64,000 bases of DNA, taken from Naegleria gruberi. Taxonomy: Eukaryota. Positions 24,929 to 44,263 of the stretch are shown here, one piece after another. Where the stretch lies: assembly GCA_000004985.1 (NCBI GenBank), contig GG738904.1; one strand, given 5' to 3'. Made by a program: the position numbers and the translations under genes. Within the stretch, counting starts at the first letter, position 1, and each line of letters opens with the position of its first letter. The notes under the pieces were generated by a model. The model did no database searches. It had not been told where the DNA came from and saw only the letters and a program-made list of their open reading frames with translations.

Positions 24929-25509
24929 TTTCGAATACAATTTTGTAAATAGTAAAAATAAATAAAATAATTTAATTCATAATATTGTTGATGATACAGT
25001 GGAGGTTGAAAATGCAATTACAAGTTGTGGTTGTTTGAAAATTTATGGAGCTTGTCAGAGGGTAAATACTGACATGTACAGTTGACAAGATCTTGAGTAA
25101 TAATGAAGATCTTTTGGAGTTTAGAATCAATTTTGTTAACACTTACAATTGGATGTTTCTCATCCTCTTCGATCTGAGCTTTACAGCAAGTAATATTTCC
25201 AAAAATAGCTATTGTTTGCAATGTTAAAAAAATTAATGAGACACATTTTCGATATTTTGTTTAAAATTACCTCAAATGCAAGGTGGAAAAACAAAATTAT
25301 TTCTTTTAAGGTCTAAGTGTTTCATAATATGTCTGTTGCCAACAACCTGCCAATCCACTACAAATTAAATCTGCACAGCTTTTGAAAATAACATTTTGCG
25401 TCTAAACCACACGCCCCAACAAAAAAAATGCAACAAACAAGAATGCTTCACTCATCACCCAACCATTCCCACAACACCAACAACAAAAAAATCACAATAT
25501 TAATTCATC

Positions 25510-26389
25510 ATGAGCAAAGGTATAAACAAATCATCAGTAAGTAACCATATAAACAAGTACTCTAATAATTATAAAAGAACACTAAGAAGAAAACTAACAC
25601 CAAGACAACTGTGAAGAAAACCAACACCAAGAACACTGTGAAGAATACCAATACCAAGAACACTGTGAAGAACACTGTGAAGAACACCAATAAGAAGAAT
25701 ACCATCAAAAAGAAGAATCCAAAGCGTAAGTGTTATTGTTATTTATTAATTTACTAACATTGTTAATAGTTGCTCGGGAAGTTGTCAATTACACAACTGT
25801 GAATGCCAAATGGTTCCTTTATGCTCCAACCACCACCGAAAGTGGTTTCAAAGCTACATTTATTCCAGTCAGTGGTCCATTTAACAGAGTTGAAGAAATG
25901 AAACGAGTTGCTTGTTTGCAAATGTTTTGTGAAAGTTGTGCTATAACTTTGGGTTTTTATTTGGATCCAAGTATGTTCAAAAGATTTCAAACTGGTATTC
26001 GTATTGCATCATTGAAACCTGAATGGTTCTCTCATTATTTCGAGTCATGTGGTGGAAAAATGAAAAACAGAGTTCAATATATTCGTTACAATGGTCACAG
26101 TTTGAGTATTACTTGTCCTTCTTATGAATTCTATGGTTTGGAAAATATGCCACCTTTGAATTGTAATGGTAGTTATGCAAGCACGGTTTTTCAAGTTTCC
26201 CAACCAATATTGATGAACCATCCATTTCAACCACACTTTAAATGGATTGAACAGTGGAAATTTGTTTACAGATTGTATTTCTCTAAACTCGTATTTATAT
26301 GCAATCCAGTAACGAATATGGTTTCAGTAGATTTGGAATTTACAAAGGATGTACAAAGTATGGATTGTACTGGTTTCCAAATTGTTTAA
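25510..26389 (+). CDS. Hypothetical protein with N-terminal K/N/T-rich tandem-repeat region, 3 exons
   Basis: Exon 1 is 25510-25536 (MSKGINKSS). A 41-nt GTAAGT intron follows. Exon 2 is 25578-25725 and encodes (NTVKNT)n repeats from a 21-nt DNA tandem repeat, aacactgtgaagaa(c/t)accaa. A 44-nt intron with a ttTACTAACat branch site follows. Exon 3 is 25770-26389 and has no recognised domain. Confidence 0.5.
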
Positions 26390-26399
26390 TAAATAATTT

Positions 26400-26879
26400 T
26401 TATTCATTAAAATCAATTAATGACAAGTCACATTCTTCTCGTTTCAATTTCAAGAATAGCACATTATTGAACTTGAATGGATTTTCTGCTAAATTGTCTG
26501 TTGTATCAACATGAACAAATAAAGACTTGAAGGCTCTATTTTCTGCATACAAAATTGAATTTAAAGAGTAAAGTTTTAATCTTCGGGTTGCAGAGGGTAA
26601 ATCAAATACTTCACGTAGAATTTTCAAATATTTAGTATCTGTAAATTCTACAACACCTTCATCCTCATCAATTCCATAATCAATCAAAGTTCTTTTTAAT
26701 TCATCCATTAGAGCTCTTGGATTAACAATAGATGGTTTCATAACACAATTCGGAATATACAGATGATCATAAAATTGATCATCTGTAATTTCTTCTCCTT
26801 CACAACAAATCATAACTACGGGCAATTCGTAAATGGTGTTATAAATAGGAATTATATTGGCTTCAGCAACACGAGGCAT
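26400..26879 (-). CDS. Hypothetical protein (160 aa; the extended N-terminus in the ORF track is translation of the upstream repeat)
   Basis: The likely start is MPRVAEANIIPIYNT. The ORF track extends it through the 78-bp repeat, which is probably 5'UTR or promoter. Confidence 0.4.
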   Translation of the reverse strand: MPRVAEANIIPIYNTIYELPVVMICCEGEEITDDQFYDHLYIPNCVMKPSIVNPRALMDELKRTLIDYGIDEDEGVVEFTDTKYLKILREVFDLPSATRRLKLYSLNSILYAENRAFKSLFVHVDTTDNLAENPFKFNNVLFLKLKREECDLSLIDFNE

Positions 26880-26890
26880 TTTGTCAGTTA

Positions 26891-26968
26891 AAATATTTGA
26901 TCGTCGATTCCCCGTGCCAGTGTTGTGGTAGTAAAAGTGATTCCGTAATCGACTCTCAAAAAAACTGA
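26891..26968. repeat. Direct repeat copy 1 (~78 bp), immediately 5' of the H3-variant ATG
   Basis: aaaatatttgatcgtcgattccccgtgccagtgttgtggtagtaaaagtgattccgtaatcgactctcaaaaa matches 30545-30622 with 4 mismatches. It contains an internal inverted repeat, gtcgattcc...(g)gaatcgac. Confidence 0.7.
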
Positions 26969-26971
26969 AAA

Positions 26972-27532
26972 ATGACTCAAACTTCTTCATCAACAGCAGA
27001 AACATCTACAGAAACCTCGGAAGTTCCAAACAACACATCAACCAAAACACCATCAACAACACCATCAAAAACACTATCAAAAACATCAACCAAAACACCA
27101 TCAAAAACATCAACCAAAACACCATCAAAAACACCAAGAAAAACACCAAGAAAAACACCAAAAAAAACACCAGCAAAGAAATCTGCAAAAAAACCATTCA
27201 CAGGAGGAATTAAAAAGCCACACAGATATAGACCAGGTACTGTAGCTTTAAGAGAAATCCGAAAGTATCAAAAAAGCACTGAATTATTGATAAAAAAAAA
27301 ACCTTTTTGTAGGTTGGTGAGAGAAGTTGCTCAAGATTACAAATCTGATGTTAGATTTCAAGCGAATTCACTCCTTGCACTTCAAGAAGCAGCTGAGGCA
27401 TTTATTATTGATATTTTTGAGGATACTAATCTTTGTGCCATTCACTCCAAAAGAGTTACTATTTTGCTCAAAGATATGCAACTTGCATTAAGAGTAAAAG
27501 GTGTTAATTATATTGGTTTATTAAATAAATAA
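26972..27532 (+). CDS. Histone H3 variant with extended repetitive N-terminal tail
   Basis: The histone fold [94 protein letters not shown] is near-identical in layout to canonical H3. The N-tail is replaced by (K)[22 protein letters not shown] repeats. The gene has no intron. Confidence 0.8.
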
Positions 27533-27565
27533 TATTAATCATCATCATTTAATATCTTTAAAAAA

Positions 27566-27749
27566 ATGTCTTGTACTTTAGAAGATATTTTTCAAGACAC
27601 ACAATTCAAAAAGTTCAACGATAAAGGAAAACCGTATTGTGAAGGAGTTGTACATTTAAAACAAGAAGACTTATACAAATTTTTAGGAATAAAAGAAGTT
27701 AAAAAGAAAAGGATATTAGAAACCTCCGAATTAAATCGATGTAAAAATG
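27566..27749 (+). CDS. SAM-domain-like N-terminal ORF running into the assembly gap (partial)
   Basis: MSCTLEDIFQDTQFKKFNDKGKPYCEGVVHLKQEDLYKFLGIKEVKKKRIL shows the SAM pattern L..DL..LGI....R..IL. The ORF continues as X because of the N run. Confidence 0.4.
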
Positions 27750-28919
27750 NNNNNNNNNNNNNNNNNNNNNNNNNNNNNNNNNNNNNNNNNNNNNNNNNNN
27801 NNNNNNNNNNNNNNNNNNNNNNNNNNNNNNNNNNNNNNNNNNNNNNNNNNNNNNNNNNNNNNNNNNNNNNNNNNNNNNNNNNNNNNNNNNNNNNNNNNNN
27901 NNNNNNNNNNNNNNNNNNNNNNNNNNNNNNNNNNNNNNNNNNNNNNNNNNNNNNNNNNNNNNNNNNNNNNNNNNNNNNNNNNNNNNNNNNNNNNNNNNNN
28001 NNNNNNNNNNNNNNNNNNNNNNNNNNNNNNNNNNNNNNNNNNNNNNNNNNNNNNNNNNNNNNNNNNNNNNNNNNNNNNNNNNNNNNNNNNNNNNNNNNNN
28101 NNNNNNNNNNNNNNNNNNNNNNNNNNNNNNNNNNNNNNNNNNNNNNNNNNNNNNNNNNNNNNNNNNNNNNNNNNNNNNNNNNNNNNNNNNNNNNNNNNNN
28201 NNNNNNNNNNNNNNNNNNNNNNNNNNNNNNNNNNNNNNNNNNNNNNNNNNNNNNNNNNNNNNNNNNNNNNNNNNNNNNNNNNNNNNNNNNNNNNNNNNNN
28301 NNNNNNNNNNNNNNNNNNNNNNNNNNNNNNNNNNNNNNNNNNNNNNNNNNNNNNNNNNNNNNNNNNNNNNNNNNNNNNNNNNNNNNNNNNNNNNNNNNNN
28401 NNNNNNNNNNNNNNNNNNNNNNNNNNNNNNNNNNNNNNNNNNNNNNNNNNNNNNNNNNNNNNNNNNNNNNNNNNNNNNNNNNNNNNNNNNNNNNNNNNNN
28501 NNNNNNNNNNNNNNNNNNNNNNNNNNNNNNNNNNNNNNNNNNNNNNNNNNNNNNNNNNNNNNNNNNNNNNNNNNNNNNNNNNNNNNNNNNNNNNNNNNNN
28601 NNNNNNNNNNNNNNNNNNNNNNNNNNNNNNNNNNNNNNNNNNNNNNNNNNNNNNNNNNNNNNNNNNNNNNNNNNNNNNNNNNNNNNNNNNNNNNNNNNNN
28701 NNNNNNNNNNNNNNNNNNNNNNNNNNNNNNNNNNNNNNNNNNNNNNNNNNNNNNNNNNNNNNNNNNNNNNNNNNNNNNNNNNNNNNNNNNNNNNNNNNNN
28801 NNNNNNNNNNNNNNNNNNNNNNNNNNNNNNNNNNNNNNNNNNNNNNNNNNNNNNNNNNNNNNNNNNNNNNNNNNNNNNNNNNNNNNNNNNNNNNNNNNNN
28901 NNNNNNNNNNNNNNNNNNN
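27750..28919. other. Assembly gap (N run, ~1170 nt)
   Basis: A continuous run of n. ORF-track proteins made of X (27566..28951, 27592..28938, front of 27747..30545) are artefacts of the gap. Confidence 0.95.
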
Positions 28920-30545
28920 TTACATACTGTTCACACAAGAAAACAGAATGATAAAGTATGTGTAGATAAATTACCAGAAAAAGTAATGATTAAATTGTCA
29001 ATGGATGGTAGAGAATTTGGAAATTTACGAACAGTTGTAGTTACTTTGAATATTTTAAATTTACATTTATTCGGAACACAAGAAAGAGACTGTGTTTTCC
29101 CAATTCTAATGTATATAGGTGAAGAGAAAGATATTATTAATTATATAACTGAAATTGAAAAAGAAGTTATTGAACTTTCTACCAAACATATTACTATCAA
29201 AGAAAACGAGCATGATGCTACACTATCACTTGAAAATACAACCCAAACAATTCCATTAGAATTCTATTGGGTGAGTGATTTAAAATCACTTGAATATTGT
29301 TCATTATTGAAAGAACATGCTATGTTTTGTCCTTTCTGCAACATTAAGAAACAAAATTCATTGTCTGGGATTTGTTCTGAAAATAGTAGAAATTTACAAC
29401 ACAAAATGGGTGTTAAATCATCCAATATTTTCATATGCATTTTGCATATGGATGAACGAATTACTGAATATATTTTGAAAATGACCTTAAAAACTTCGGA
29501 ACTTGAAAAGCAAATGAAAACCAATATTTGTTCATTAGAAGGTTTTGCTGATTTTAATTTTCATTCATCAAGTGTTTTAGTGAAAGATACAATCGAAGAA
29601 GAAAATGCTCTCACAGTTAAGGAATATTCATTTATGTTATCTGGCGGGCATTGTAATAAGCTTTTTGGATCTTTTGATAAAGTTTTTGGATTTTTGAAAG
29701 ATTCAAACTCAAATATGTATAATATTTGGAAAAAATACAAATCAATTAGACAGTGGTTGTATTATACAAATGAAGATTTGGAAAAGAAATCATTAAAGGA
29801 TTGGGAAAATTTTGATTCTGAGTTAAATGAATGGAGATTGCTTTTTGTTCTACAAAAAGCTGATAGTGGAAGAATAGGAGATTACATTCATATTGCCACT
29901 GCACATCTTTATGACTTGCTTTCAACTTATGGAAGTCTGGTTCCTCTTTCAAATCAAGGTGTAGAAAGTTCTCATCAATTAGATTGTTTGATTATGGAAA
30001 GAGGGACAAGTAAGGGTAAAATGTCTATTGGTACCAAAAAAGCTCAAGCTGGCTCCTCAAAACCAAACGTGGAAACTGTATCCAAACCTGCTTCCCATAC
30101 TCTTGAGTCTAGTGATCTTGATAATGAGCAAGAACATAAGGAATTTAATTATGAATCATTTATTAAGAAGACAGAATCTTGTGACTGGAATGATTTATTC
30201 CAAGTTTGTCAAATCATGCTGAAGAAACTTAGAAAGTTGTATTTATCTTTTACTTGTGAAGAAGTACTATTTGTCCGGTTAGAAAGAAGGACTGGTAAGG
30301 TAATAAGAAAAGATTGGACAAGAGACATTTTAACTATGTCTCCCAACTTTACTCTGCCTATCCGAAAACCAACCAATGTTCTCATTCAAAAACCAGATAA
30401 CATTAACACTGAAGTGATATCTCCACAGCTTGCTCCATCCCAAGATGTTCCTAAAAGAACAGTTGAACTCAAACAATCCCAGGAATATGGATTGGTTGTG
30501 AATGGTGATGATGATGGGTTGATGAATGATGATGTCTTCTATTAA
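28920..30545 (+). CDS. Large uncharacterised ORF emerging from the gap (C-terminal ~540 aa), possibly the same gene as the SAM ORF
   Basis: The ORF is open from the gap edge: ...IKLSMDGREFGNLRTVVVTLNILN...CVFPILMYIGEEKD...FCPFC...ICILHMDE.... It has a C/H cluster but no confidently recognised domain, and an acidic tail. It is flanked by the 78-bp direct repeats. Confidence 0.45.
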   Translation, partial: LHTVHTRKQNDKVCVDKLPEKVMIKLSMDGREFGNLRTVVVTLNILNLHLFGTQERDCVFPILMYIGEEKDIINYITEIEKEVIELSTKHITIKENEHDATLSLENTTQTIPLEFYWVSDLKSLEYCSLLKEHAMFCPFCNIKKQNSLSGICSENSRNLQHKMGVKSSNIFICILHMDERITEYILKMTLKTSELEKQMKTNICSLEGFADFNFHSSSVLVKDTIEEENALTVKEYSFMLSGGHCNKLFGSFDKVFGFLKDSNSNMYNIWKKYKSIRQWLYYTNEDLEKKSLKDWENFDSELNEWRLLFVLQKADSGRIGDYIHIATAHLYDLLSTYGSLVPLSNQGVESSHQLDCLIMERGTSKGKMSIGTKKAQAGSSKPNVETVSKPASHTLESSDLDNEQEHKEFNYESFIKKTESCDWNDLFQVCQIMLKKLRKLYLSFTCEEVLFVRLERRTGKVIRKDWTRDILTMSPNFTLPIRKPTNVLIQKPDNINTEVISPQLAPSQDVPKRTVELKQSQEYGLVVNGDDDGLMNDDVFY

Positions 30546-30622
30546 AAATATTTGATCGTCGATTCCCCGTGCCAGTGTTGTGGTAGTCAAAGCGATTCCG
30601 GAATCGACTTTCAAAAATTCAA
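30545..30622. repeat. Direct repeat copy 2 (~78 bp), immediately 3' of the large 28920-30545 ORF
   Basis: The same element as copy 1. It is also followed within 10 bp by an ATG, here opening only a 21-codon ORF. Confidence 0.7.
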
Positions 30623-31038
30623 TAAAATGTGCCATCAAATAAAATTTTATCAAAGGCCTTTATTGTTAGAAATAATAATTATTATTTAAATATTAAACAT
30701 TGTTACTTCATATAATCAAATTAAAAGCATGTTAAATGTTTAATATATAACAAATAATAACTGTAATAATCGGAATTGTAAAATTCTGGAAGATTTTAAA
30801 CAGTAGTGGTTTTAATTGGTTCAAAAAGTGGCAAAAAAAAATTTGGCGCAAAGAGCGGTCGACAATTTGTCGAGTCTTGCTGAATGGTTATTTTCAACTC
30901 TAGATTTGTAGTGTGAAAAGCAAACATTCAATTTCAAAATCTCTTTTACCCGAATGGCCTTTTGCGGTTAGAGCTCGTTATCACGCACTTGCTCAAGAAT
31001 CATTTTGAAAAAAAAACTTTACGAAACTTGCCTAAACC

Positions 31039-32448
31039 ATGAACGAAACAGAATGCAAGGATTGCGTCTCGGATAACCACAGCAAAGTTTCCAGCGCAAG
31101 CACATCCAACCTTTCCAACATTACCACAACCTCTGTAGGCTCTCTAGAATTATTCGAAACCATGATTGTCCAACCGATTGGCCATTCGATTCTTCAACTT
31201 TCGTCCAAACACAAAATTCTCATCATTTCCATTAAATGGTTTGGTTGTCCAATGTGCCAAAAATTAATCGACAATCTCGATGAATACCTCCCTTCTTTAC
31301 TAATGCTCAACATTATTCCTGTCATTTGCCATCAAGAAGACGAAACCAAATTTGGAAAGCACATTTCACATACGAAACTGTTTCATTGTAAAATTTCAAC
31401 ACAAGCCAAGAGGATGCTGTTGATTGACAAGGCAAGTGTTGTAAAGCACATGAAAGCCATGCCAACGATTTTGAAATTACTTGTCAAGGAAAAGAGAAAA
31501 TTATTTTTGCCTTCGCTGTCAGAAATCAAAGATATGGAGCTGGTGTCAACTTTTGGGATGCATATTGTGAGGAATGGACAAGTGGAGACTAGTTATTTTT
31601 ATAAGAATTTGTTGGATAGACCTGATTTGGGTCAGTTTGTGTTTAATCTTTCGAATAGAAAAGAAGAAACGATTCAGGAAGAAGGAGATGATAAGGAAAT
31701 GGTAATTTCGTATAAGAAGAGTGAAATTGAAGAAGTGGAGCAGTTTTTACCTAATCTTATCAAGCTATACCCAGATTTGAAGAAAGTTTTTTCATCAATT
31801 CGGCAAAAACGAGTTCAATTACCTTCTAGTGAACTTTCGAATAATTTACAAATAGGTCAGCCAACCTCCTCCACACCAACCTCACCTACCCTTCAAGTTC
31901 CACAGCCAGCTAACGGCGGTAGACCTTCCACATCATCAGTTGGCTCATCCTCTTCCTCAATTTCCACATCTTACATTAGCATGTCAAATGTCCTCGAAAA
32001 TGCCACAATGAGAACTTATTTCAAAGCTCACTTGAGTAACATGTACAGTTTGGAATTGGTTTTATTCCTCGAACAGGTGAATATTTACAAATTCCTTGTC
32101 AAGTCATTGAAATCTCAATCAACTTGTCAAAATTTACTTTCGTCTGAAGAGCAAATTCTTCAGGACATTAGTTTGCCAGCATCTGAAATGGTAACAACTA
32201 TCCCAGAGTATGAAACTAAAGCTAGATATATTGTGGAAACATTTTTGAATGATGAAGCCATGTTTCACATTAACACGAGTCGAAAGTTGACAGATAGAAT
32301 GAAAACCCTAATTGAAGAGAAGGGTTTTATTGAGGAATTATTTGATGAGATTGAAATGGATGTGAAAACTTCCATGTTAGTTTATTTATTTGCATCGTTT
32401 AGACAAACTACATTGTTTACTGAAATGATGCAACGATTTAAAAAGTAA
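31039..32448 (+). CDS. Protein with N-terminal CxxC (thioredoxin-like?) region, S/P-rich linker and C-terminal RGS-like domain
   Basis: WFGCPMCQ is a CxxC motif. The central tract is SSTPTSPTLQVPQP...SSSSISTS. The C-terminus, TYFKAHLSNMYSLELVLFLEQVNIYKF, fits the RGS consensus F..FL..E.S.ENL.F...VE.YK. Confidence 0.5.
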   Translation: MNETECKDCVSDNHSKVSSASTSNLSNITTTSVGSLELFETMIVQPIGHSILQLSSKHKILIISIKWFGCPMCQKLIDNLDEYLPSLLMLNIIPVICHQEDETKFGKHISHTKLFHCKISTQAKRMLLIDKASVVKHMKAMPTILKLLVKEKRKLFLPSLSEIKDMELVSTFGMHIVRNGQVETSYFYKNLLDRPDLGQFVFNLSNRKEETIQEEGDDKEMVISYKKSEIEEVEQFLPNLIKLYPDLKKVFSSIRQKRVQLPSSELSNNLQIGQPTSSTPTSPTLQVPQPANGGRPSTSSVGSSSSSISTSYISMSNVLENATMRTYFKAHLSNMYSLELVLFLEQVNIYKFLVKSLKSQSTCQNLLSSEEQILQDISLPASEMVTTIPEYETKARYIVETFLNDEAMFHINTSRKLTDRMKTLIEEKGFIEELFDEIEMDVKTSMLVYLFASFRQTTLFTEMMQRFKK

Positions 32449-32768: not shown

Positions 32769-33740
32769 ATGAAAACAAATCTAATCTTTTCAATTGCAAT
32801 TCTACTCTTACTCGCAATCCTCTCAGTTCAAGCAACTGACAGCTATCAAACTAAACCTCCAGTTGTCGTAGTTGACAAGTATCACAAGCCAAAGCATTGT
32901 AAGAGAAAATGCTTAAAGCACAAGTGGATTAAGAAGTGTTTGAAACACAAACTCGTCGGTCAAAAGAAGGTCTGTGATCAATATGCCATTGTCGGTGCTG
33001 GCAAATGTCTCAAACATAAGAAATATTCCAAATGTGACAAGTACAGTAAGGCAACAAAGAAGTGTGTCTTGCATGCATACAAGACTGTTGGATGCGCCAA
33101 GAAGAAGTATTGGAAAGTTTGCGATTCTTATGGAACTAAGAAGATTTGCATCAAGAAGGGTTTCAAGAAGTTCTGTGCCAAGTACAAGATTATCAACAAG
33201 TGCGTCAAGAAGGGATATAAGAAGGTCTGTAAGAAATTCAAGAAGGTTCCAATCAAGAAGTGTGAAAAGAAGAAGGTCTGCGACAAATACACTGTTGATT
33301 CTTACAATAAGAAGGTCGCCAAATGTAGATATGTTAAAAAGTGCAAGATTGTTTCATGGGCAAAGAAATGCGCCAAGTATAAGAAGGTTAAATATTGTAA
33401 GGAGAGAAAATCAGTTAAGAAGTGTTGTCTCATTAAGAAGAAATTCTTCTGTGCCAAGCATAAGACCATCAAATTCTGTAAGCACAAGAAGACTATTTCC
33501 AAATGTGTCAAATATCAAAAGAAGAAGTATTGTGCCAAGACAATTATTATTCCACCAAGATGTATCAAGAAGAAGTATTATAAGAAGTGTTTGAAACGTT
33601 CAAAGGGTAAGAAGATTTGTAAGAAATTCAAATTTGTTGGTGGAAAGAAGAAGTGTTGCAAGTCAATCAAGAAGAAGATTTGTATCAAGAGAAAGACATG
33701 TAAGAAGTCATCAAAACCAATCGTTACACCATCCTTGTAA
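32769..33740 (+). CDS. Secreted, extremely Lys/Cys-rich protein (signal peptide + ~300 aa of KKC-type repeats)
   Basis: The signal peptide is MKTNLIFSIAILLLLAILSVQA. Then come ~48 Cys spaced 6-10 residues apart in K-rich context (CLKHK, KKCVKKGYKKVCKKFKK...). The predicted pI is extreme. The ORF track starts 11 codons upstream at 32736. Confidence 0.6.
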   Translation: MKTNLIFSIAILLLLAILSVQATDSYQTKPPVVVVDKYHKPKHCKRKCLKHKWIKKCLKHKLVGQKKVCDQYAIVGAGKCLKHKKYSKCDKYSKATKKCVLHAYKTVGCAKKKYWKVCDSYGTKKICIKKGFKKFCAKYKIINKCVKKGYKKVCKKFKKVPIKKCEKKKVCDKYTVDSYNKKVAKCRYVKKCKIVSWAKKCAKYKKVKYCKERKSVKKCCLIKKKFFCAKHKTIKFCKHKKTISKCVKYQKKKYCAKTIIIPPRCIKKKYYKKCLKRSKGKKICKKFKFVGGKKKCCKSIKKKICIKRKTCKKSSKPIVTPSL

Positions 33741-33783
33741 ATTAATAGCATTTACTGAAGAATAAACTAAAATTCTGGTTCTT

Positions 33784-33856
33784 AATCAAATATAAAAATT
33801 AATTCGCCCACCGTGGGGGTCGAACCCACGACCACAAGGTTAAGAGCCTTGCGCTC
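33784..33856 (-). tRNA. tRNA-Lys (anticodon CTT)
   Basis: The minus-strand sequence GCCCGTCTAGCTCAGTCGGTAGAGCGCAAGGCTCTTAACCTTGTGGTCGTGGGTTCGACCCCCACGGTGGGC(g) folds as a canonical cloverleaf with a 7-bp acceptor stem, a GTTCGA T-loop and a CT-CTT-AA anticodon loop. It closely resembles eukaryotic tRNA-Lys-CTT. Confidence 0.85.
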
Positions 33857-34316
33857 TACCGACTGAGCTAGACGGGCTACATGTTCATGATAAACGTATA
33901 CTATTGATAGTCTTTACCTTTCTCAAATGATTTTAATAGTTAATTGACAGTCATTTCCATAAACCAAACTGGTTCTTGAACTGCCCTCATCACATGCACA
34001 ATAATATTCCTCACAATATGATATAATTATTGGACTATCAGAATGTGAAACAACGTTTCCCAAAACAATTGAATGGCAGGAACCTCCAAATCAGTCAATA
34101 TTTCATAAAACATGCCATCCTTTACAATCAGCATTAAATTCCTCATCTCTCCAACAATTTCTTCATAAAATCTTCTCAAATAAACAGAAGTAGCATTTTT
34201 GCGATATTCTGAGAAGAAGGGAAATATAAAATCGAGAATGTTTAATAAATCATCATGGCGATGAACATTTTTTATATAAAAATTTTAAAAAGACTTTTTG
34301 AAATTGATTTGAATAA

Positions 34317-36629
34317 TTAATTATCATCAGTCATTGTATCAAAGTAATCTAAACTCTCTGCATTGTAATAAACATCCTCAATAATTTCAACAACTTGTGG
34401 AGAATAGTCGAGAGTGAGAGCAGCTTCCTTAATAAGTGGAATGTGTTCCTTATTTTCTTCTTTGAGTAATTCATTTCTAATCATTAAATAGTAGCATCGG
34501 AATACTGGATTAAGTAATTTAAAGCAATCTTCTACTAAGGATCCTTCATAGTGATCTGCTAAAGCGGCACACGAAATGACAATTCTGTCATTGTCTGAAT
34601 TTTGAAGGAGAGTCGAATCTGTGCACTTTTCAATCACATCCTTGTTCAGCACATCCACACCCGAGTAGAATTTGTTGGCCAATTTCAATCTAGGAATCAA
34701 GTAATGAAGTGGAGAAGCCAAATGATACACTACTTGTCCGCTATCTTGCATAAAGAGGAATCCACTATATTCCTTAGGATTGAGCTTGAGAGATTCTTCA
34801 ATCATGGCCTGTTTCCACTTCTTGAGAGAAAAACCATCCTGAACATAACTGGTCAATTCCTTCTCTTCTTGAATAATGTTTGGTTTATCTAAAAATCTAA
34901 AAATTGATTCATCAGCTCCATATTGTCCAATCATTGTCAGCTGCTCACCATTCCAAATAAACATTATAGTCGATTTCTTATTAAGCTCATCCAAGGAAAG
35001 ATTTTGTTGCTTCCAAACTCTCCAAAAATCTTCTCTCCAGTTTGCTCCCTTTTTTTTAAGGAGTGGCCAATCAATCCAGTCTTGATTATCCAATTCAGGA
35101 CAGCTCACTTTCCATTCATTATTGTAGTGGAAGAGACTCACTCTCTTTCCGCATGGAACCTTGAAGCAATAGAGGTAGTCATCAAATCTTGGGAGTATTG
35201 ATGAATCTCTCAGATCAACAGTTCTACCACAAGTTTGTGAAACTATTGAGTAGCACTTGTCAAATTTAATGATACAACCATCAAGAGCCATTAAGTGTGG
35301 ATGAAGGTTGTCAACATTTGGAGGGATGGAGCATTGGAACAGGGTGGCATTTTCGATCTCTGAATTGTTACTAGCTTCAAATGGCACTACTCTAATTCCA
35401 AATAAGTGTTTTAAAACGTAAATTCCATTCATGAAGAGATTGGCAACATAGGATTCAATTGAGCTGATTTTGTTTTTCTTGATATGTTTAGATTCATTCC
35501 TGAATGATGCTCTCAATTTAGAAAGATTATCTGTAATGCAAAACTTGTTCAAGAAATTAATGACATCCTTTTGTTTTTCCAAAAGTTTCTTACCAAACGC
35601 AATAACTTCATCACAATCATCAGTGAATTCAACTTTTAACTGATCATACTCAGGCAAAAAATTCTGCTCATATACATCCCAATTATGATTCGGGAAACTC
35701 AAGACATGATCTTGAAAATCGTTCATCTCTTGGTAGTCTGTAATTTCATTATTTTCCATCAATTGTCTGGAAAATAAGAGTTTTCTCTTGCCATGAACAA
35801 TATTCTTTTTAGAGGTTTTTAGTAATGCTTGGGTAGGTCTTCTCGATAAGTAACCAGTGTAAACGTCTTGATAGTTTTCTCTTTCATCAGAATATGAACC
35901 ATTTTGTGCAAGTTCGAAAAATCTCTTTGCTTTTTGGAAACAATAATCCAATTCTTCTGCATTTGCACTGATTAATCTAGGAATATTTAAATGATGAATA
36001 GCCCAATTCTTTCTGAAATAGCTCATCTTTTCATCTTCATAAATGACATAAACCTGATCAATCAAATGACTTGTCACTGCTTGGTTATATACAGGTTGAT
36101 GATAATGCATGTATGAAATGAAATAACTAGTGTTATACACTGAAACATCCAATTTAAACTCAATGTCTTCTCCCAAGCAGGTCTTGATCGAAATTTGAGT
36201 CTCCCACTTGCTTTGCATATCACTTGCCAAAGCTCCCAATAATTCATCTGTAGATTTATATTCATCCACAACCAAAATTATATCAAAATCAGATTCTGCC
36301 AAATATTGAATCACCTCCTTCTTTTCATCATTCCTCCAACAAACACCAATCAATTCATTCCCATGCGAATCAGTCACTCCATATGGCTCGATCGATCCAG
36401 CATCTCTCACCTGTGAATAATAGGCCTGTGATCCGAAAATATACATTCCTCTCACCTGATCATCACCAAACTTTTCAATTCCCATCTCCCGAACAATTTG
36501 CAAGATCGGATCCTTAAAATCTGATAATTTTTGTATGGAATAAATTTTCTCCCCCTCCCCTGAAGCTGAAGAAATCATAGGATCATGATCAACAGCATCA
36601 TCAGACATTGTAATATTGTTGCTATTCAT
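34317..36629 (-). CDS. Hypothetical protein (770 aa), no confidently recognised domain
   Basis: It is a long ORF with genome-typical codon usage. The N-terminus has a weak GS...DFDII pattern (nucleotidyltransferase-like?), but the spacing is atypical. Confidence 0.5.
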   Translation of the reverse strand: MNSNNITMSDDAVDHDPMISSASGEGEKIYSIQKLSDFKDPILQIVREMGIEKFGDDQVRGMYIFGSQAYYSQVRDAGSIEPYGVTDSHGNELIGVCWRNDEKKEVIQYLAESDFDIILVVDEYKSTDELLGALASDMQSKWETQISIKTCLGEDIEFKLDVSVYNTSYFISYMHYHQPVYNQAVTSHLIDQVYVIYEDEKMSYFRKNWAIHHLNIPRLISANAEELDYCFQKAKRFFELAQNGSYSDERENYQDVYTGYLSRRPTQALLKTSKKNIVHGKRKLLFSRQLMENNEITDYQEMNDFQDHVLSFPNHNWDVYEQNFLPEYDQLKVEFTDDCDEVIAFGKKLLEKQKDVINFLNKFCITDNLSKLRASFRNESKHIKKNKISSIESYVANLFMNGIYVLKHLFGIRVVPFEASNNSEIENATLFQCSIPPNVDNLHPHLMALDGCIIKFDKCYSIVSQTCGRTVDLRDSSILPRFDDYLYCFKVPCGKRVSLFHYNNEWKVSCPELDNQDWIDWPLLKKKGANWREDFWRVWKQQNLSLDELNKKSTIMFIWNGEQLTMIGQYGADESIFRFLDKPNIIQEEKELTSYVQDGFSLKKWKQAMIEESLKLNPKEYSGFLFMQDSGQVVYHLASPLHYLIPRLKLANKFYSGVDVLNKDVIEKCTDSTLLQNSDNDRIVISCAALADHYEGSLVEDCFKLLNPVFRCYYLMIRNELLKEENKEHIPLIKEAALTLDYSPQVVEIIEDVYYNAESLDYFDTMTDDN

Positions 36630-36840
36630 TTGTTTTTAATATTTTGAATTTTTTTTTGAATTTATTTTTTGTTGAGTTTTTGAAAGTTCCAATTTGAATT
36701 TGATTAAATTTTTGGATGTGAGTGCGAACTTGTATTACAACAAATTGTAAAACACGTTGTTTCTTGAAGAATTCAAATCGTAAATGATTAATAGTTAGTC
36801 AATGGATGGACCTGGGTGACACATTGAAATTCTTCAGGTC

Positions 36841-38973
36841 TTAGTCAACATCTTCCATGTAATGTCCATCATGATTAATAAATTTCCAATTTTCTAGCAA
36901 TTTATCAATTGACATTCTTTTTGAGGGATCTTTGTGCAATAGCCCACAGAGAGTTTCCTGTAACATTGTTGTTTGTCTATCACTTAGCTCAGGATATTTG
37001 TGAACGAGTTCATCAATAACTTCATTAATAAATGAGTGAATCGCTTCATGTGAATCATGAGCAGCAACCCATTCACCAAATCCAATTAGTTTTTCATATT
37101 CTTGATTGGTGTTTTCATGAAAACATTTCATCCTTTTCATAACAAGCTCTTCAGATCCATTGTAATTAAGCAGGAATTTTAGAATTAATAGAAGAATATT
37201 AATTCCAACACTCCAAGAATCCATTCTAAACATAAAATTTGTGTGGATGATTCTATTTCCAAAATTATATTTGCAGTAATAAGATTCTGGTGAATTTACA
37301 AAGTCTGTTCCAGTTGTGGGAAGAGAAATAATAACTTTGTCATTGAAAATCTCCATGTCTGAAACATCAATTGATTCCTCAAAATCACAGAATAATAATG
37401 TAAATATCTCATTAACGAATTTAGATAATAAATTATCTGATTTGGTATCCATGTGAACTATATTAAGAGAATGCAAATCCTTAACACAGAGACATATTAA
37501 TTCAACCTTGTTAAGGAAATCGGTAATGTTAGATATTTTGTTTTTTTCTAAATATTTAGAAAAATCAGCTTCACATCTCTCCATTAAAACAAATTTCATT
37601 TCTGAACCGTCGTCGCTGAACGCATGACCAGCCCTCAAGACTTTCACTAAATATTGTTTCTTATGTGTTAATAATTTCTTATATATTTCTTCGAAATTAT
37701 ATGAGTGATCCATTGGAATTGTTTTCAAATATTCACTTTCACTATTTACACATTCTTTAAGCTCTCTTAGTGATATTATGTCTAATTGCTTTTCTTTGTT
37801 TTCTTCCATCTTTTTGAGAACAGTATAATGACTCAAATGTTGTAATTGATCAATAGATTCAATACGAGATCCAAGAGGTTCAATTAAATATTCCAAAGAC
37901 TGGTCATTAAATATTTCTTTACATTTTTCTATTAGTTTTTCCAAATCCACACCATTGAGCATTACAACATGTTGTACTTCATTGAGGTAATGTACAAAAA
38001 TGTATCGAATAGTTGAAAATTCATCCCACATGGGAGCCACAATTATTGTTTCCTTCTTGATAAGTTTCTTCCAAACTATTGGATCACACTCAAGTTCTCC
38101 AAAATATGGATCCGTTAATGATGGAAAGGAATTCATTTCTTGATAGATTTGTCTTGCTTTTCCTCCTTCACCTATCGACAGGTTTCTTATAATTTTATAT
38201 ACAAATCCTGCCTTACATTTAGGGTCAATACACAAAATGTTTTCAATGCATTGAATTGCATCATTAAATTCTCCTAAATTTAAATGGCAATTTGCCAATA
38301 GTAACCGAATACCAGTTAAAAAATTCAAATCTTTCAAAATTTTGTAAAAGTAGGTTTTTGCACTTTCAAAATTTCCAATTTTGTAATAATCTAAAGCAAT
38401 TTGAAAAATGCTCTCTATATAGTTTGCAGTTATTATCGTACAGTCTGAAAATTCAGTTGTGTTCTTCTTAATAAATTTCTTTGAATCAATAATTGATTCT
38501 ATAATTTTCAGACATTGCATTCTTGTTAGTTCGCGACCTTTAATTTTCATTATTAAATCAATCAGTTCAAAATCAATTCCTCTTTTCTCCAATTCATGCT
38601 CTATATTATCTGAATCTATTTCCTCTCCAAAAACAAAATTATTTTCTAATTTCTTAATTCCTCCAATCTCTTCAAAACTTGATACTTCAAAATCTGTTAA
38701 TCTGATTATTGGAAATTCTATTGGATTAATATTCAATACTATAAAATTATTTACGCTAATATCGTAATGTATAACTTTATGCCACGGCCTTGTTTGTGTT
38801 AAATAATTTTTCAAGAATTTTAGTAATTCATCTTGACCAAAATTCGAAACTGAAACTAATCTTGGGATCAAGTGCTCGATCTCCTCGTTATCAAATTCGA
38901 AAACATAATCCAATGTATTATTCAAAATGATTACTATTTCCGTGTGGCCCAAGTTATTCGCAAGATCTATCAA
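36841..38973 (-). CDS. TPR-repeat + protein-kinase-like protein (710 aa)
   Basis: The central TPR-like helices are NFESAKTYFYKIL...LLLANCHLNLGEFNDAIQCIENIL. The C-terminal kinase-like region has LHSLNIVHMDTKSDNLL, an HxDxKxxN catalytic-loop variant, followed by an activation/helical region. Confidence 0.55.
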   Translation of the reverse strand: MIDLANNLGHTEIVIILNNTLDYVFEFDNEEIEHLIPRLVSVSNFGQDELLKFLKNYLTQTRPWHKVIHYDISVNNFIVLNINPIEFPIIRLTDFEVSSFEEIGGIKKLENNFVFGEEIDSDNIEHELEKRGIDFELIDLIMKIKGRELTRMQCLKIIESIIDSKKFIKKNTTEFSDCTIITANYIESIFQIALDYYKIGNFESAKTYFYKILKDLNFLTGIRLLLANCHLNLGEFNDAIQCIENILCIDPKCKAGFVYKIIRNLSIGEGGKARQIYQEMNSFPSLTDPYFGELECDPIVWKKLIKKETIIVAPMWDEFSTIRYIFVHYLNEVQHVVMLNGVDLEKLIEKCKEIFNDQSLEYLIEPLGSRIESIDQLQHLSHYTVLKKMEENKEKQLDIISLRELKECVNSESEYLKTIPMDHSYNFEEIYKKLLTHKKQYLVKVLRAGHAFSDDGSEMKFVLMERCEADFSKYLEKNKISNITDFLNKVELICLCVKDLHSLNIVHMDTKSDNLLSKFVNEIFTLLFCDFEESIDVSDMEIFNDKVIISLPTTGTDFVNSPESYYCKYNFGNRIIHTNFMFRMDSWSVGINILLLILKFLLNYNGSEELVMKRMKCFHENTNQEYEKLIGFGEWVAAHDSHEAIHSFINEVIDELVHKYPELSDRQTTMLQETLCGLLHKDPSKRMSIDKLLENWKFINHDGHYMEDVD

Positions 38974-39176
38974 TGCTTCAATTTCATGATTAGCAAGTTC
39001 CGATCGAGCTAAGAACCTCTTTCAATTTTTCTGGATTGTTTTCGTTCACACAATCAATACAATTTTGAAAGACTGAAGAATGGATATTCTCCAAGTTTGA
39101 CAACTGTTTTTCTGTCATCACAATATTACATTCAATATTTTTTTTAATTATTTTAAATAATTTTATTCGAAAGATC

Positions 39177-42772: not shown

Positions 42773-44263
42773 CTAAAGTTTTAACGAAGTCATGGATGAT
42801 AAACTGATCATTGGAGATCTTGGTGATAGCCTCTTTTGCTTTGCATTCCAATCATTTGAAACTTTCTGAATGGTCTTGTTAGAGAATTTGAGTCTTGAAT
42901 AGGAATCTACCAAGTTGCTCAGCACGTGAAGTTGAATATCGGCAAATAAATCATCTGTTAATGCATTTTGATTATCTGCAAAACTAATATTGTCCATAAT
43001 TACGGTCTTTACAGAATAGAGATCAGAGGGCAAATTCAATTGGAAAGGTGAATCTTCGTACAAGTATTTCTTTACCATTCGGTGTGCAATTTTCTTTCTT
43101 TGCCTTAATGCTGTTTCACGTTTATATTTCTCAATATCAGCATAGCACAGCAAATTTTCAGGGCAAAACGACTTTCTCAAATAATCCAAGAATATTTGAA
43201 ATGTTTCCTTATTGGAAATTATCATTTCAATTTCTGAATCACATTCTCTTTTTTCTTTTGAATCTGCATGGATGGCTCTAATTATAGGAATTAAAATTGT
43301 GAGAACCAACTCGAATGTACTGTAAGCTGCAACTACAAATCCAGAAGGAACGAAATAGTCCACAATCTCTACCACTGAAGCAACACTTAAAAATGTAAAG
43401 ATTACTGCAGTCAAGATTTGAGTGGCAACCAAAAGGAAAACTTCCCTCTTAATATGCCAAGTATCATTGTCAACAGTAAAGCAAAGTCCAATAGCAATAA
43501 ATTCCACAATAAAATAGCAAATACTAATTCCCACAACAAATAGAGTTGAGGGAAACCCTAACCCACATCCTTTTCCAAGTGAAATCAAGAGTGCTCCATC
43601 CATAAAGTAATGTTCATTTTGGAAAAAGCTATCCTCTACTACCATAAGCACAAACCACAGAAAGAGTTGGACTCCAATGGAAAGCCAAAATACTATGAGA
43701 GATGCTGTATTGTTGGTGAGAATGGAGTGTGCCTTGATGATGAATTTCTCTCTTGTCGTATTCTCTTCACGAGCTATAACTTGATTATTTTCAAAAGTTT
43801 CCACAACAGATGTCATGACTGATGAATTGACATTCCTATTACTAGTTGATATACTGTTGTTATTACTATTGTTGGAATTTTGTTTGGCTTGAATAAACAA
43901 GCTCTCTGTGTTCTGTTGTTCTTGTTGCATGCAATAGGAGCTTGATAAAGTGTTTGTCTTTATCAAATTGAATCTGTGCTGAAATACTAATCGCAAACAC
44001 CTCAATATTGAAGGCATTGCAAAACAAGGAGGAATTGAATAGCTAACAATACTAAATATCATACAGGGAAATCTAGATCTACCAACCGTAAAACGGAGAA
44101 GAGTAACAGATACATAGATAAAACTCCCTGTTAGTGTAACTACAATACCACTGATGGTACGTGATTGAAGATGTCCACTTTTCCTCTTCTTTATCACTCC
44201 TATGGCACAAATAACAACAAGAATGATGTACAAAACCAAACATGTTGCTGATAATATTGGCAT
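42773..44263 (-). CDS. Multi-pass membrane protein with C-terminal RGS domain (496 aa)
   Basis: It has ~7 hydrophobic helices. The C-terminal RGS domain is ETFQIFLDYLRKSFCPENLLCYADIEKYK...YLYEDSPFQLNL. Confidence 0.6.
   Translation of the reverse strand: MPILSATCLVLYIILVVICAIGVIKKRKSGHLQSRTISGIVVTLTGSFIYVSVTLLRFTVGRSRFPCMIFSIVSYSIPPCFAMPSILRCLRLVFQHRFNLIKTNTLSSSYCMQQEQQNTESLFIQAKQNSNNSNNNSISTSNRNVNSSVMTSVVETFENNQVIAREENTTREKFIIKAHSILTNNTASLIVFWLSIGVQLFLWFVLMVVEDSFFQNEHYFMDGALLISLGKGCGLGFPSTLFVVGISICYFIVEFIAIGLCFTVDNDTWHIKREVFLLVATQILTAVIFTFLSVASVVEIVDYFVPSGFVVAAYSTFELVLTILIPIIRAIHADSKEKRECDSEIEMIISNKETFQIFLDYLRKSFCPENLLCYADIEKYKRETALRQRKKIAHRMVKKYLYEDSPFQLNLPSDLYSVKTVIMDNISFADNQNALTDDLFADIQLHVLSNLVDSYSRLKFSNKTIQKVSNDWNAKQKRLSPRSPMISLSSMTSLKL

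What the first reader, a model, noticed from the sequence alone, without database searches (positions are those of the whole stretch)
32769..33856. Secreted hyper-basic Lys/Cys-rich protein, immediately followed by tRNA-Lys(CTT)
After a canonical signal peptide, ~300 residues consist almost entirely of K and C, about 48 Cys and over 100 Lys, in irregular KKC(x)6-10 repeats (e.g. CVKKGYKKVCKKFKKVPIKKCEKKKVC). This does not resemble protamines (Arg-rich), metallothioneins (no K-richness) or typical defensins (too long). It could be an antimicrobial or cell-wall/nucleic-acid-binding polycation, or an effector-type small-cysteine-rich protein. Most of its lysines use AAG. The only tRNA-Lys(CTT) gene in the window sits 45 bp past its stop on the opposite strand. 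That is probably coincidental but worth noting.
Basis: seen in the sequence. Interest (0 to 1): 0.55.

Follow-up and report, generated by a model that had tools for sequence, protein, structure and literature searches.

The report
Secreted lysine/cysteine-rich Naegleria repeat protein
This is a real, conserved gene of the amoeba Naegleria gruberi for a secreted protein that is one-third lysine with a cysteine about every ninth residue, belonging to an uncharacterised amoeba-specific family that is most likely extracellular wall or matrix material, and the lysine tRNA gene beside it looks like a coincidence.

Summary
The ORF is real: window 32769..33740 (+), 323 aa, intronless. It has a signal-peptide-like N-terminus, 107 Lys (33%) and a net charge of +104. 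Cys spacing is strongly periodic, with C-x8-C the mode (0/20000 shuffles reach it). All 7 Asp sit in D-x-Y motifs.

The window is N. gruberi NEG-M, because neighbouring proteins match exactly. This ORF is absent from the protein collection, so it is probably unannotated.

It belongs to a family seen only in Heterolobosea or unnamed environmental sequences. Named members come from N. gruberi (six other gene models), N. fowleri, N. lovaniensis and Willaertia. All are 'hypothetical', with no Pfam, PDB-sequence or fold match. An ortholog-like contig gives dN/dS 0.12, with 30 of 32 Cys columns conserved.

The AAG bias follows position. Lys inside K-runs is 59 AAG : 6 AAA, and isolated Lys is 23 : 19, so the bias fits avoidance of A-runs rather than a tRNA link. 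tRNA-Lys(CTT) lies at 33805..33877 (-), 64 nt past the stop codon, as a separate convergent gene. No tRNA was found next to three relatives, although little 3' flank was available for two of them.

Function is inferred only. The best guess is a disulfide-cross-linked polycationic wall or matrix protein, possibly of the cyst wall. The main rival is an antimicrobial polycation.

The parts
32769..32834 (+). Start codon and predicted signal peptide (residues 1-22, MKTNLIFSIAILLLLAILSVQA, with cleavage expected after VQA)
   Evidence: Read from the sequence. The same N-terminal pattern occurs in all complete family members. No SignalP-type tool was available.
32835..32897 (+). Cys-free N-terminal linker of the mature protein, carrying two D-x-Y motifs (TDSYQTKPPVVVVDKYHKPKH)
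   Evidence: Homologous (V/I)D(S/T)Y-containing linkers appear in paralogs and orthologs.
32898..33701 (+). Periodic-cysteine polycationic core (residues 44-311) with 32 Cys, modal C-x8-C units and consensus roughly C-h-K-[Y/K]-x-x-h-K-h. It includes the conserved CDKYTVDSY centre and the most conserved C-terminal module, PPRCIKK..C.K.SKG.K.C.K..FVGGKK.C.
   Evidence: Spacing statistics are and unit composition. Cys conservation is 28/32 against paralog P0003 and 30/32 columns against L003. The profile search hits concentrate on the C-terminal module.
33702..33740 (+). Short C-terminal tail (KKSSKPIVTPSL) and the TAA stop codon (33738-33740)
33761..33766 (+). AATAAA hexamer 21 nt after the stop codon, a candidate poly(A) signal for the gene (inference)
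   Evidence: Read from the sequence. Its use is not tested.
33794..33798 (-). T5 run on the minus strand, 7-11 nt downstream of the tRNA 3' end. It is a Pol III terminator-like element.
   Evidence: Read from the sequence. The interpretation rests on general knowledge of Pol III termination.
33805..33877 (-). tRNA-Lys(CTT), convergent with the protein gene and 64 nt from its stop codon. It is an independent neighbouring gene and is listed because the finding includes it.
   Evidence: ARAGORN and Rfam RF00005 at 66.4 bits, E 3e-12.

Best explanation
Window 32769..33740 is a genuine, intronless protein-coding gene of Naegleria gruberi NEG-M that appears to be missing from the reference protein set. 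It encodes a 323-aa secretory precursor.

Shown:
- After removal of a 22-residue signal peptide, the ~35 kDa mature protein is an array of about 30 short basic units. Each unit is delimited by one cysteine, most often as C-x8-C.
- The mature region carries a net charge of about +100.
- Asp occurs only in D-x-Y motifs.
- The gene belongs to a multigene family restricted to heterolobosean amoebae and is under purifying selection.

Inferred:
- The protein is exported and oxidised in the secretory pathway.
- The even number of regularly spaced cysteines forms a ladder of disulfides within beta-hairpin-like units. Some probably also form between molecules, giving a rigid, protease-resistant polycationic rod or mesh.
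- The lysines bind anionic or polysaccharide wall polymers.
- The Tyr/Lys/Cys chemistry, including the D-x-Y motifs, provides further cross-linking sites.
- The most likely role is a structural component of an extracellular coat, in Naegleria most plausibly the cyst wall or its mucoid layer and pore plugs.

The neighbouring tRNA-Lys(CTT) is an unrelated Pol III gene. The AAG-rich lysine coding reflects avoidance of poly(A) runs in a Lys-run-rich mRNA.
For: Gene reality:
- A 972-nt ORF stands in a 33% GC genome.
- Against the 77%-identical ortholog-like contig L003, dN/dS is 0.12 with dS 1.18, while the flanks have diverged.
- Cys is conserved far above background: 28/32 at 50% overall identity, and 30/32 columns against L003.

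Organism and annotation:
- Neighbouring ORFs are exact matches to N. gruberi NEG-M proteins EFC38805 and EFC38870 on a 297-kb scaffold.
- The ORF product is not found by exact look-up.
- It also does not appear as a ~100% hit in the homology search.

Family:
- Four hits came from the word-indexed search, 8 from the profile search, and 18 among 1.84 billion representatives.
- All named hits are Naegleria or Willaertia 'hypothetical proteins'.

Secretion: a signal-peptide-like N-terminus is conserved across members.

Architecture:
- Cys periodicity and D-x-Y enrichment both lie far beyond shuffles.
- There is no DNA tandem repeat.
- AlphaFold predicts only beta-hairpin segments, with local pLDDT of 70-84 in an otherwise low-confidence model.

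Precedents for wall proteins of this style:
- COWP/OWP oocyst-wall proteins have regularly spaced Cys thought to form stabilising disulfides (PMC4514997).
- Acanthamoeba cyst-wall lectins carry a Thr/Lys/Cys-rich domain or basic Thr/Lys/His-rich spacers (PMC6541295).

Codon usage:
- In K-runs the counts are 59 AAG : 6 AAA, against 23 : 19 for isolated Lys (Fisher p 3.5e-5).
- None of 36 KK pairs is AAA-AAA, and the longest A-run is 5.
- The same rule holds in the other window ORFs: 66% vs 44% AAG, and 3 AAAAAA among 91 KK pairs.
- Poly(A) runs are reported to cause ribosome stalling and frameshifting (PMC7295572 abstract).
Against: - No expression, localisation or biochemical data were found for any family member. 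The locus tags and accessions occur in no searchable paper text. I also found no paper identifying a Naegleria cyst-wall protein.
- The wall role rests on analogy of composition and architecture, not on homology.
- The structure models are low confidence (mean pLDDT 48 and 47), so the disulfide ladder is hypothetical.
- There is no recognised carbohydrate-binding domain.
- A +100 polycation is equally what one would expect of a bactericidal or bacteria-agglutinating secreted protein in a bacterivore.
- The genomic neighbours (RGS, kinase, GTPase, P450, WS/DGAT genes) give no functional hint.
Confidence: 0.4

Rival explanations
1. Secreted or phagosomal antimicrobial, bacteria-binding polycation. 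The protein, or disulfide-closed cationic hairpin peptides released from it by cleavage at its many dibasic sites, would bind and permeabilise or agglutinate the bacteria that Naegleria eats or competes with.
For: - The protein has a signal peptide, a +104 net charge, amphipathic basic/hydrophobic units of about 9 residues bounded by Cys, and many KK/KKK sites.
- AlphaFold's only confident elements are beta-hairpins.
- The organism is a bacterivore, and the family has expanded in soil-dwelling N. gruberi.
Against: - There is no acidic pro-region to neutralise the cation, which is usual in antimicrobial-peptide precursors (established knowledge).
- The units are not separated by recognisable processing spacers.
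- Distant family members keep the Cys scaffold but are only mildly basic (P0012 and P0014: K 13%, pI about 9.2-9.3). What is conserved is therefore the scaffold rather than the charge.
- The conserved D-x-Y linkers and terminal DSYKP-type repeats have no obvious place in an antimicrobial peptide.
- There is no similarity to any described antimicrobial family in Pfam or PDB sequences.
Confidence: 0.2
2. Extracellular adhesive or cement protein of the trophozoite, for substrate or prey adhesion. It would work like Lys/Tyr/Cys-rich bioadhesives, through electrostatic attachment to negatively charged surfaces plus Tyr/Cys cross-linking.
For: The composition is K 33%, C 10%, Y 6%, with D-x-Y-x-(K/P) motifs repeated at the termini of paralogs. 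The resemblance to Lys/Tyr-rich adhesive proteins is recalled from general knowledge and was not tested.
Against: - No homology to any adhesive family was detected.
- Tyr content is modest.
- There is no evidence for Tyr modification enzymes acting on it.
- No expression data are available.
Confidence: 0.1
3. The tRNA-Lys(CTT) gene is functionally coupled to the Lys-rich gene. This could be through local supply of the AAG decoder or through co-regulation via shared chromatin.
For: - The distance is 64 nt in a convergent arrangement.
- 82 of 107 Lys codons are AAG.
- Only two tRNA genes occur in 64 kb.
Against: - tRNAs act in trans, so gene position does not affect supply (established knowledge).
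- The AAG excess is confined to Lys runs and follows a rule seen across the other window ORFs.
- No tRNA was found within the available flanks of paralog locus L001 (about 3 kb downstream), Willaertia locus L002 (5 kb each side) or ortholog-like L003. The 79-nt 3' flank of L003 does not match the tRNA at the corresponding offset.
Confidence: 0.03
4. The ORF is a non-functional low-complexity artefact or a pseudogene.
For: - It is absent from the reference protein set.
- The ortholog-like contig L003 carries one in-frame TGA.
- The AAG-rich sequence also opens a 206-aa alternative-frame ORF.
Against: - dN/dS is 0.12 in the K/C frame.
- The Cys scaffold is conserved across paralogs at 40-50% identity and across genera.
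- The reading frame is intact, with a start, a signal peptide and a stop.
- There is no DNA-level repeat.
Confidence: 0.03

Closest known systems
Apicomplexan oocyst wall proteins (COWP / TgOWP / EnOWP)
   Same: These are secreted proteins built from repeats in which cysteines recur at conserved, regular spacing. The cysteines are thought to give disulfide-stabilised walls of an environmentally resistant stage, and the proteins form multigene families (PMC4514997).
   Different: - No sequence relationship was detected: the only named organisms among the 18 profile hits are Naegleria and Willaertia, and the rest are unnamed environmental sequences.
- COWP repeats are six-Cys type I/II modules, whereas here there is one Cys per unit of about 9 residues.
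- COWPs are not one-third lysine.
- Wall localisation is shown for COWPs and is only inferred here.
Acanthamoeba castellanii cyst-wall lectins (Jonah with a Thr/Lys/Cys-rich domain; Leo with 8-Cys domains and a basic Thr/Lys/His-rich spacer)
   Same: They are amoebal, signal-peptide-bearing, lineage-restricted Cys-rich proteins with Lys-rich low-complexity segments. They are abundant in a cyst wall and encoded by multigene families (PMC6541295).
   Different: - They belong to a different supergroup (Amoebozoa vs Heterolobosea).
- There is no CAA, CBM49 or other Pfam domain here.
- Here the whole protein is the K/C-rich array rather than a spacer next to a lectin domain.
- Glycan binding was not tested.
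Cationic disulfide-stabilised beta-hairpin antimicrobial peptides and defensins
   Same: They share high positive charge, short amphipathic segments closed by cysteines, and a secretory route (general knowledge, with composition).
   Different: - The mature protein is 301 aa with 32 Cys, rather than a peptide under 100 aa with a fixed 2-8 Cys motif.
- There is no acidic propiece.
- There is no family match.
- Less basic relatives keep the scaffold.
N. gruberi paralogs NAEGRDRAFT_67458, _64980, _64508, _48501, _66117 and _76199; N. fowleri FDP41_004030; N. lovaniensis C9374_009239; Willaertia magna ABK040_005866
   Same: These are true homologs. E-values run from 1e-16 to 1e-132, and they share the signal peptide, the Cys scaffold, the D-x-Y motifs and the C-terminal FVGGKK module.
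   Different: - All are unnamed 'predicted/hypothetical' proteins with no known function.
- The window protein is the most lysine-rich member (33% K, against 12-31% in the others).
- It lacks the C-terminal D-x-Y-K-P tandem repeats of some paralogs.
- NAEGRDRAFT_76199 and the Willaertia model look like chimeric gene models.

Membership tests
Heterolobosean K/C-rich periodic-cysteine family (unnamed; N. gruberi D2VF04/D2V7Z9/D2V6N9 etc.) | Significant full-length sequence similarity with a shared Cys scaffold | tested here: met
   P0003 scores E 4.5e-57 over 88% of the query. 28/32 Cys are aligned. The profile search recovers only this family.
Heterolobosean K/C-rich periodic-cysteine family (unnamed; N. 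gruberi D2VF04/D2V7Z9/D2V6N9 etc.) | N-terminal signal peptide and D-x-Y motifs in Cys-free linkers | tested here: met
   Hydrophobic N-termini are seen in all complete members, and D-x-Y motif counts are given per member. The signal peptide was judged by eye because no predictor was available.
Apicomplexan oocyst wall proteins (COWP/OWP) | Sequence homology to COWP type I / type II six-Cys repeats | tested here: not met
   No apicomplexan name appears among the hits of a profile search of 1.84 billion representatives, where several hits are unnamed. There is no Pfam or PDB-sequence hit. The units here contain one Cys each.
Apicomplexan oocyst wall proteins (COWP/OWP) | Regularly spaced cysteines in a secreted repeat protein | tested here: met
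   14 of 31 gaps equal 9, and no shuffle out of 20000 reaches this. This is an analogy of design only.
Apicomplexan oocyst wall proteins (COWP/OWP) | Localisation in the wall of a resistant stage | not testable with these tools
   This needs antibodies or tagging, or wall proteomics.
Defensins / beta-hairpin antimicrobial peptides | Small mature peptide with a fixed family-specific Cys motif | tested here: not met
   The mature protein has 301 aa and 32 Cys. There are no Pfam hits at E<=1.
Defensins / beta-hairpin antimicrobial peptides | Microbicidal activity | not testable with these tools
   This requires recombinant or synthetic peptide assays.
Metallothioneins | Small protein with C-x-C / C-C clusters and few or no aromatic residues | tested here: not met
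   There are 0 C-x-C, only 2 CC and 30 aromatic residues in 301 aa.
Protamines / histone H1-like nuclear polycations | Nuclear protein without a signal peptide; Arg-rich for protamines | tested here: not met
   A signal-peptide-like N-terminus is present, with 6 Arg against 107 Lys.
Acanthamoeba Jonah/Leo/Luke cyst-wall lectins | CAA, 8-Cys or CBM49 carbohydrate-binding domains | tested here: not met
   There is no Pfam domain in the window protein or in 9 other relatives. No Acanthamoeba name appears among the profile-search hits.
tRNA (Rfam RF00005), for the neighbouring gene | Cloverleaf covariance-model score above the gathering threshold, with anticodon CTT | tested here: met
   The score is 66.4 bits against a gathering threshold of 29. 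ARAGORN gives anticodon ctt.

The most novel reading that the evidence does not exclude
The family would be a previously undescribed class of extracellular protein: a hyper-cationic, disulfide-stapled beta-hairpin ladder with D-x-Y cross-link motifs. It would form the proteinaceous scaffold of heterolobosean cyst walls. That would make it the first molecularly identified Naegleria cyst-wall component. It would have been largely missed by standard tryptic proteomics, because only 67 of 301 mature residues fall in tryptic peptides of 7 aa or more.
Probability: 0.3. Interest if true: 0.6.

Novelty: new variant of a known kind. Interest (0 to 1): 0.45.

Why it matters
Naegleria cysts are the persistent, disinfectant-tolerant stage of a genus that includes the lethal N. 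fowleri. I found no paper that identifies a Naegleria cyst-wall protein.

This family is conserved, secreted and Naegleria/Willaertia-specific, with a periodic-cysteine design. It has one homolog each recovered from N. fowleri and N. lovaniensis. That makes it a concrete, testable candidate for wall or coat material, and possibly a genus-specific diagnostic target.

Two practical lessons follow.
- The gene seems to be missing from the NEG-M protein set, and two relatives appear to be mis-modelled as fusions. Extreme-composition genes are therefore easy to lose in annotation.
- A protein that is one-third lysine is shredded by trypsin, so standard proteomics would under-report it.

If the protein instead proves to be a bactericidal polycation, it would be an unusual antimicrobial architecture. 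In either case the tRNA adjacency needs no special explanation.

Tried and rejected
- Pfam scan of the protein, its neighbours and 9 other relatives found no domain in any family member.
- PDB sequence search with a family profile at E<=10 gave nothing.
- Two AlphaFold runs were made, on the full length with 7 sequences and on the C-terminal half with 6. Mean pLDDT was 48 and 47, which is unusable beyond a tendency to beta-hairpins.
A degenerate DNA pattern for CKKFKKVPIKKC in metagenome contigs gave 0 hits.
- Exact-sequence contig look-up showed that the N. gruberi reference loci of the paralogs are not indexed. tRNA adjacency at paralog loci could therefore be checked only in L001, L002 and L003.
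No paper names any family member, and none identifies a Naegleria cyst-wall protein. The N. fowleri cyst/trophozoite RNA-seq paper (PMC9959186) lists no usable accessions. The 1967 N. gruberi cyst-wall chemistry paper (J Bacteriol 94:1272), recalled from memory, is not held, so its amino-acid data could not be checked.
- A 38-nt stretch is perfectly conserved between the window and L003 at 33219-33256. A run of 12 identical codons occurs in 8% of shuffles, so it is not significant.
- The apparent AT-rich island at 28-30 kb is an assembly gap of N, not biology.
Full report
**What is there**

Window 32769..33740 on the + strand is an uninterrupted ORF of 323 codons ending in TAA.
- It encodes MKTNLIFSIAILLLLAILSVQA|TDSY.... 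This N-terminus has a short basic n-region, a 16-residue hydrophobic core and small residues at -3/-1, which is the classical signal-peptide layout. I judged this by eye because no predictor is available.
- The rest contains 107 Lys (33%), 32 Cys (9.9%), 19 Tyr, 6 Arg, 7 Asp and 2 Glu, giving a net charge of +104.
- The mature chain is about 35.4 kDa with pI about 10.1.
- The tRNA-Lys(CTT) lies at 33805..33877 on the - strand, 64 nt past the stop codon rather than 45. The finding's end coordinate falls inside the tRNA.

**Is it more than chance?**

Yes, on several counts.
- Cysteine spacing is periodic. 14 of 31 Cys-Cys gaps are exactly 9 residues and 20 are 8-10. The shuffle means are 1.4 and 4.1, and no shuffle out of 20000 reaches the observed values.
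- The units have the rough consensus C-h-K-[Y/K]-x-x-h-K-h.
- Every one of the 7 Asp residues is followed two positions later by Tyr (0 of 100000 shuffles).
- Tandem Repeats Finder sees no array across the ORF. The periodicity is therefore an old protein-level feature, not a recent low-complexity expansion.

**Organism and annotation**

- Neighbouring ORFs are exact matches to Naegleria gruberi NEG-M proteins on a 297,120-bp scaffold. These are EFC38805 (RGS domain, 31039-32445), EFC38870 (NAEGRDRAFT_81464, 34320-36629), and others.
- The 323-aa product is not in the 15-billion-protein collection by exact look-up.
- It also does not appear as a near-identical hit in the homology search. The gene therefore seems to be missing from the reference annotation.
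- The upstream in-frame ATG at 32736 is not conserved in frame in a related contig, and paralogs begin MK..., which supports 32769 as the start.

**Relatives**

- The word-indexed search found 4 proteins, and a profile of diverse members found 8.
- An exhaustive HMM search of 1.84 billion representatives found only 18.
- All hits with names are heterolobosean 'predicted/hypothetical' proteins:
  - N. gruberi NAEGRDRAFT_67458, _64980, _64508, _48501, _66117 and _76199;
  - N. fowleri FDP41_004030;
  - N. lovaniensis C9374_009239;
  - Willaertia magna ABK040_005866.
- None of ten members has a Pfam domain at E<=1. A family profile hits nothing in PDB sequences at E<=10.
- The Cys scaffold, the D-x-Y motifs and a C-terminal module (PRCIKK..C.K.SKG.K.C.K..FVGGKK.C) are conserved. 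Against P0003, 28 of 32 Cys align at 50% overall identity.
- Several paralogs end in tandem (I/V)D(S/T)YKP repeats.
- Distant environmental members keep the scaffold but are far less basic, with K about 13%. The scaffold, not the extreme charge, is the family constant.

**Selection**

- A Logan contig (L003) carries an ortholog-like copy that is 77% identical at the protein level.
- In the K/C frame dN/dS is 0.12 with dS 1.18, and 30 of 32 Cys columns are conserved. The non-coding flanks barely align.
- That copy has one in-frame TGA. This may be a sequencing error or a strain-specific pseudogenisation.

**Codon usage and the tRNA**

- AAG is used for 82 of 107 Lys (77%), against 47% in the other long ORFs of the window.
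- The excess is positional. Lys residues adjacent to another Lys use AAG 59:6, while isolated Lys use it 23:19 (Fisher p 3.5e-5).
- None of 36 KK pairs is AAA-AAA, and the longest A-run in the ORF is 5.
- The other ORFs of the window follow the same rule: 66% AAG in runs against 44% isolated, with only 3 AAAAAA among 91 KK pairs.
- This is what selection against coding poly(A) runs would produce. Such runs are reported to cause ribosome stalling and frameshifting (PMC7295572 abstract).
- Under those context frequencies about 57% AAG would be expected. A residual excess remains, which may reflect high expression or stronger selection in KKK runs.
- The tRNA is a bona fide gene (66.4 bits) with its own T5 terminator at 33798-33794.
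- The protein gene has an AATAAA at 33761-33766. The two are separate convergent transcription units (interpretation from general knowledge).
- No tRNA is present in the available flanks of a paralog locus (L001), a Willaertia locus (L002) or L003. The 79-nt 3' flank of L003 does not match the tRNA at the equivalent offset.
- Coincidence remains the best reading.

**Structure**

- Both AlphaFold runs were low confidence, with mean pLDDT 48 and 47.
- The only segments reaching pLDDT 70-84 are long beta-hairpins at residues about 150-170, 186-210 and 270-312.
- Foldseek against the PDB gave nothing.
- The disulfide-ladder or beta-hairpin picture is therefore a hypothesis.

**Function (inferred)**

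- The features point to an exported, disulfide-cross-linked, polycationic structural protein. They are:
  - a signal peptide and an even number of regularly spaced cysteines;
  - a huge positive charge and Tyr-containing linker motifs;
  - a multigene family restricted to cyst-forming heterolobosean amoebae;
  - purifying selection on the scaffold.
- The closest designs known to me are two.
  - Apicomplexan oocyst-wall proteins have regularly spaced cysteines that are thought to stabilise the wall through disulfides (PMC4514997).
  - Acanthamoeba cyst-wall lectins carry a Thr/Lys/Cys-rich domain or basic Thr/Lys/His spacers (PMC6541295).
- Neither is homologous to this family, so the resemblance is analogy.
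- I therefore rate 'wall or extracellular-matrix protein, most plausibly of the cyst' at about 0.4.
- The main rival is a secreted or phagosomal antimicrobial or bacteria-binding polycation, at about 0.2.
  - Charge and hairpin-like units favour it.
  - The lack of an acidic propiece, the conserved D-x-Y linkers and the mildly basic distant relatives count against it.
- An adhesive role (about 0.1), a functional tRNA linkage (about 0.03) and an artefact or pseudogene (about 0.03) are less likely.
- No expression or localisation data could be found.

**Verdict**

- It is a member of an undescribed, lineage-specific family whose design resembles known wall proteins, but whose sequence and extreme lysine content are its own.
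- The tRNA adjacency needs no special explanation.
- Interest is moderate at 0.45. The finding is a good candidate for wall or coat biology in Naegleria and a cautionary case for annotation and proteomics, but no new mechanism has been demonstrated.

Noticed in passing
window 27750-28919: A run of 1170 N marks an assembly gap. It causes the apparent GC dip to 15% at 28-30 kb and a spurious 932-codon ORF at 27747-30542.
   Followed up: yes
window 32769-33740: The K/C-rich ORF product is absent from the protein collection, although both flanking genes are exact N. gruberi NEG-M entries (EFC38805, EFC38870). It is probably an unannotated gene in the reference. The UniProt accession gap (D2VWB5, between D2VWB4 and D2VWB6) could instead belong to a small minus-strand gene at about 33920-34320.
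   Followed up: partly
P0002 (NAEGRDRAFT_76199, 443 aa): This looks like a chimeric gene model. A SAM/PB1-domain N-terminus, which is not encoded in this window, is fused to the C-terminal half of a K/C-family paralog about 90% identical to the window protein. It sits on a 39.8-kb scaffold.
   Followed up: partly
L002 3598-4347 and about 5270-5552 (Willaertia magna JBEGDK010000001.1): The Willaertia family member is split. A 249-aa ORF holds the N-terminal and middle part. The C-terminal FTGGKK module lies about 900 nt downstream, fused in the annotated model (ABK040_005866) to an unrelated WD40/RLD-like N-terminus. An A/T-rich low-complexity stretch lies between them, which could be an intron or an insertion.
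   Followed up: no
L003 632-634 (Logan SRR32051688 contig): The ortholog-like copy has an in-frame TGA where the window has GGA (Gly, residue 108). The reading frame and Cys scaffold are otherwise intact. This could be a sequencing error, a recent pseudogene or a recoded codon.
   Followed up: no
window 33878-33942; L004 3199-3288: A 96-98% identical Naegleria contig from metagenome ERZ929261 loses all similarity to the window at 33942, about 65 nt upstream of the tRNA-Lys 5' end. It continues with 89 nt found nowhere in the window. This could be a strain-specific insertion or rearrangement next to the tRNA gene.
   Followed up: partly
window 25355-30914 and 36803-39156 versus L005 / L004: The same near-identical metagenome strain lacks two blocks. 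One is about 5.5 kb around the N gap. The other is about 2.3 kb carrying the TPR/protein-kinase ORF 36844-38550. This suggests presence/absence variation or assembly joins.
   Followed up: no
window 34190-34195; L004 2794-2945: L004 has about 150 extra nt here that create an intact 114-aa ORF (L004 2807-3151). In the window the region holds only two short minus-strand ORFs (33923-34063 and 34027-34179). This could be a small gene with an intron, or a deletion in NEG-M.
   Followed up: no
window 20191-22917, 31039-32445, 42776-44263: Three separate ORFs with RGS (regulator of G-protein signalling) domains lie within 25 kb. The one at 31039-32445 also gives a weak thioredoxin-like hit.
   Followed up: no
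window 27035-27197: A tandem repeat of a 12-nt unit (ACACCAACAAAA, about 12 copies, with a higher-order 24/48-nt period) lies just upstream of the assembly gap.
   Followed up: no
window 32974-33594 (+, alternative frame): A 206-aa Arg/Ser-rich ORF overlaps the gene in another frame. It is a by-product of the AAG-rich coding sequence (AAG AAG read as AGA/GAA). Selection analysis supports the K/C frame.
   Followed up: partly
window 50585-50656: tRNA-Pro(TGG) on the + strand is the second tRNA gene of the window. Together with the tRNA-Lys gene that makes two tRNA genes in 64 kb.
   Followed up: no
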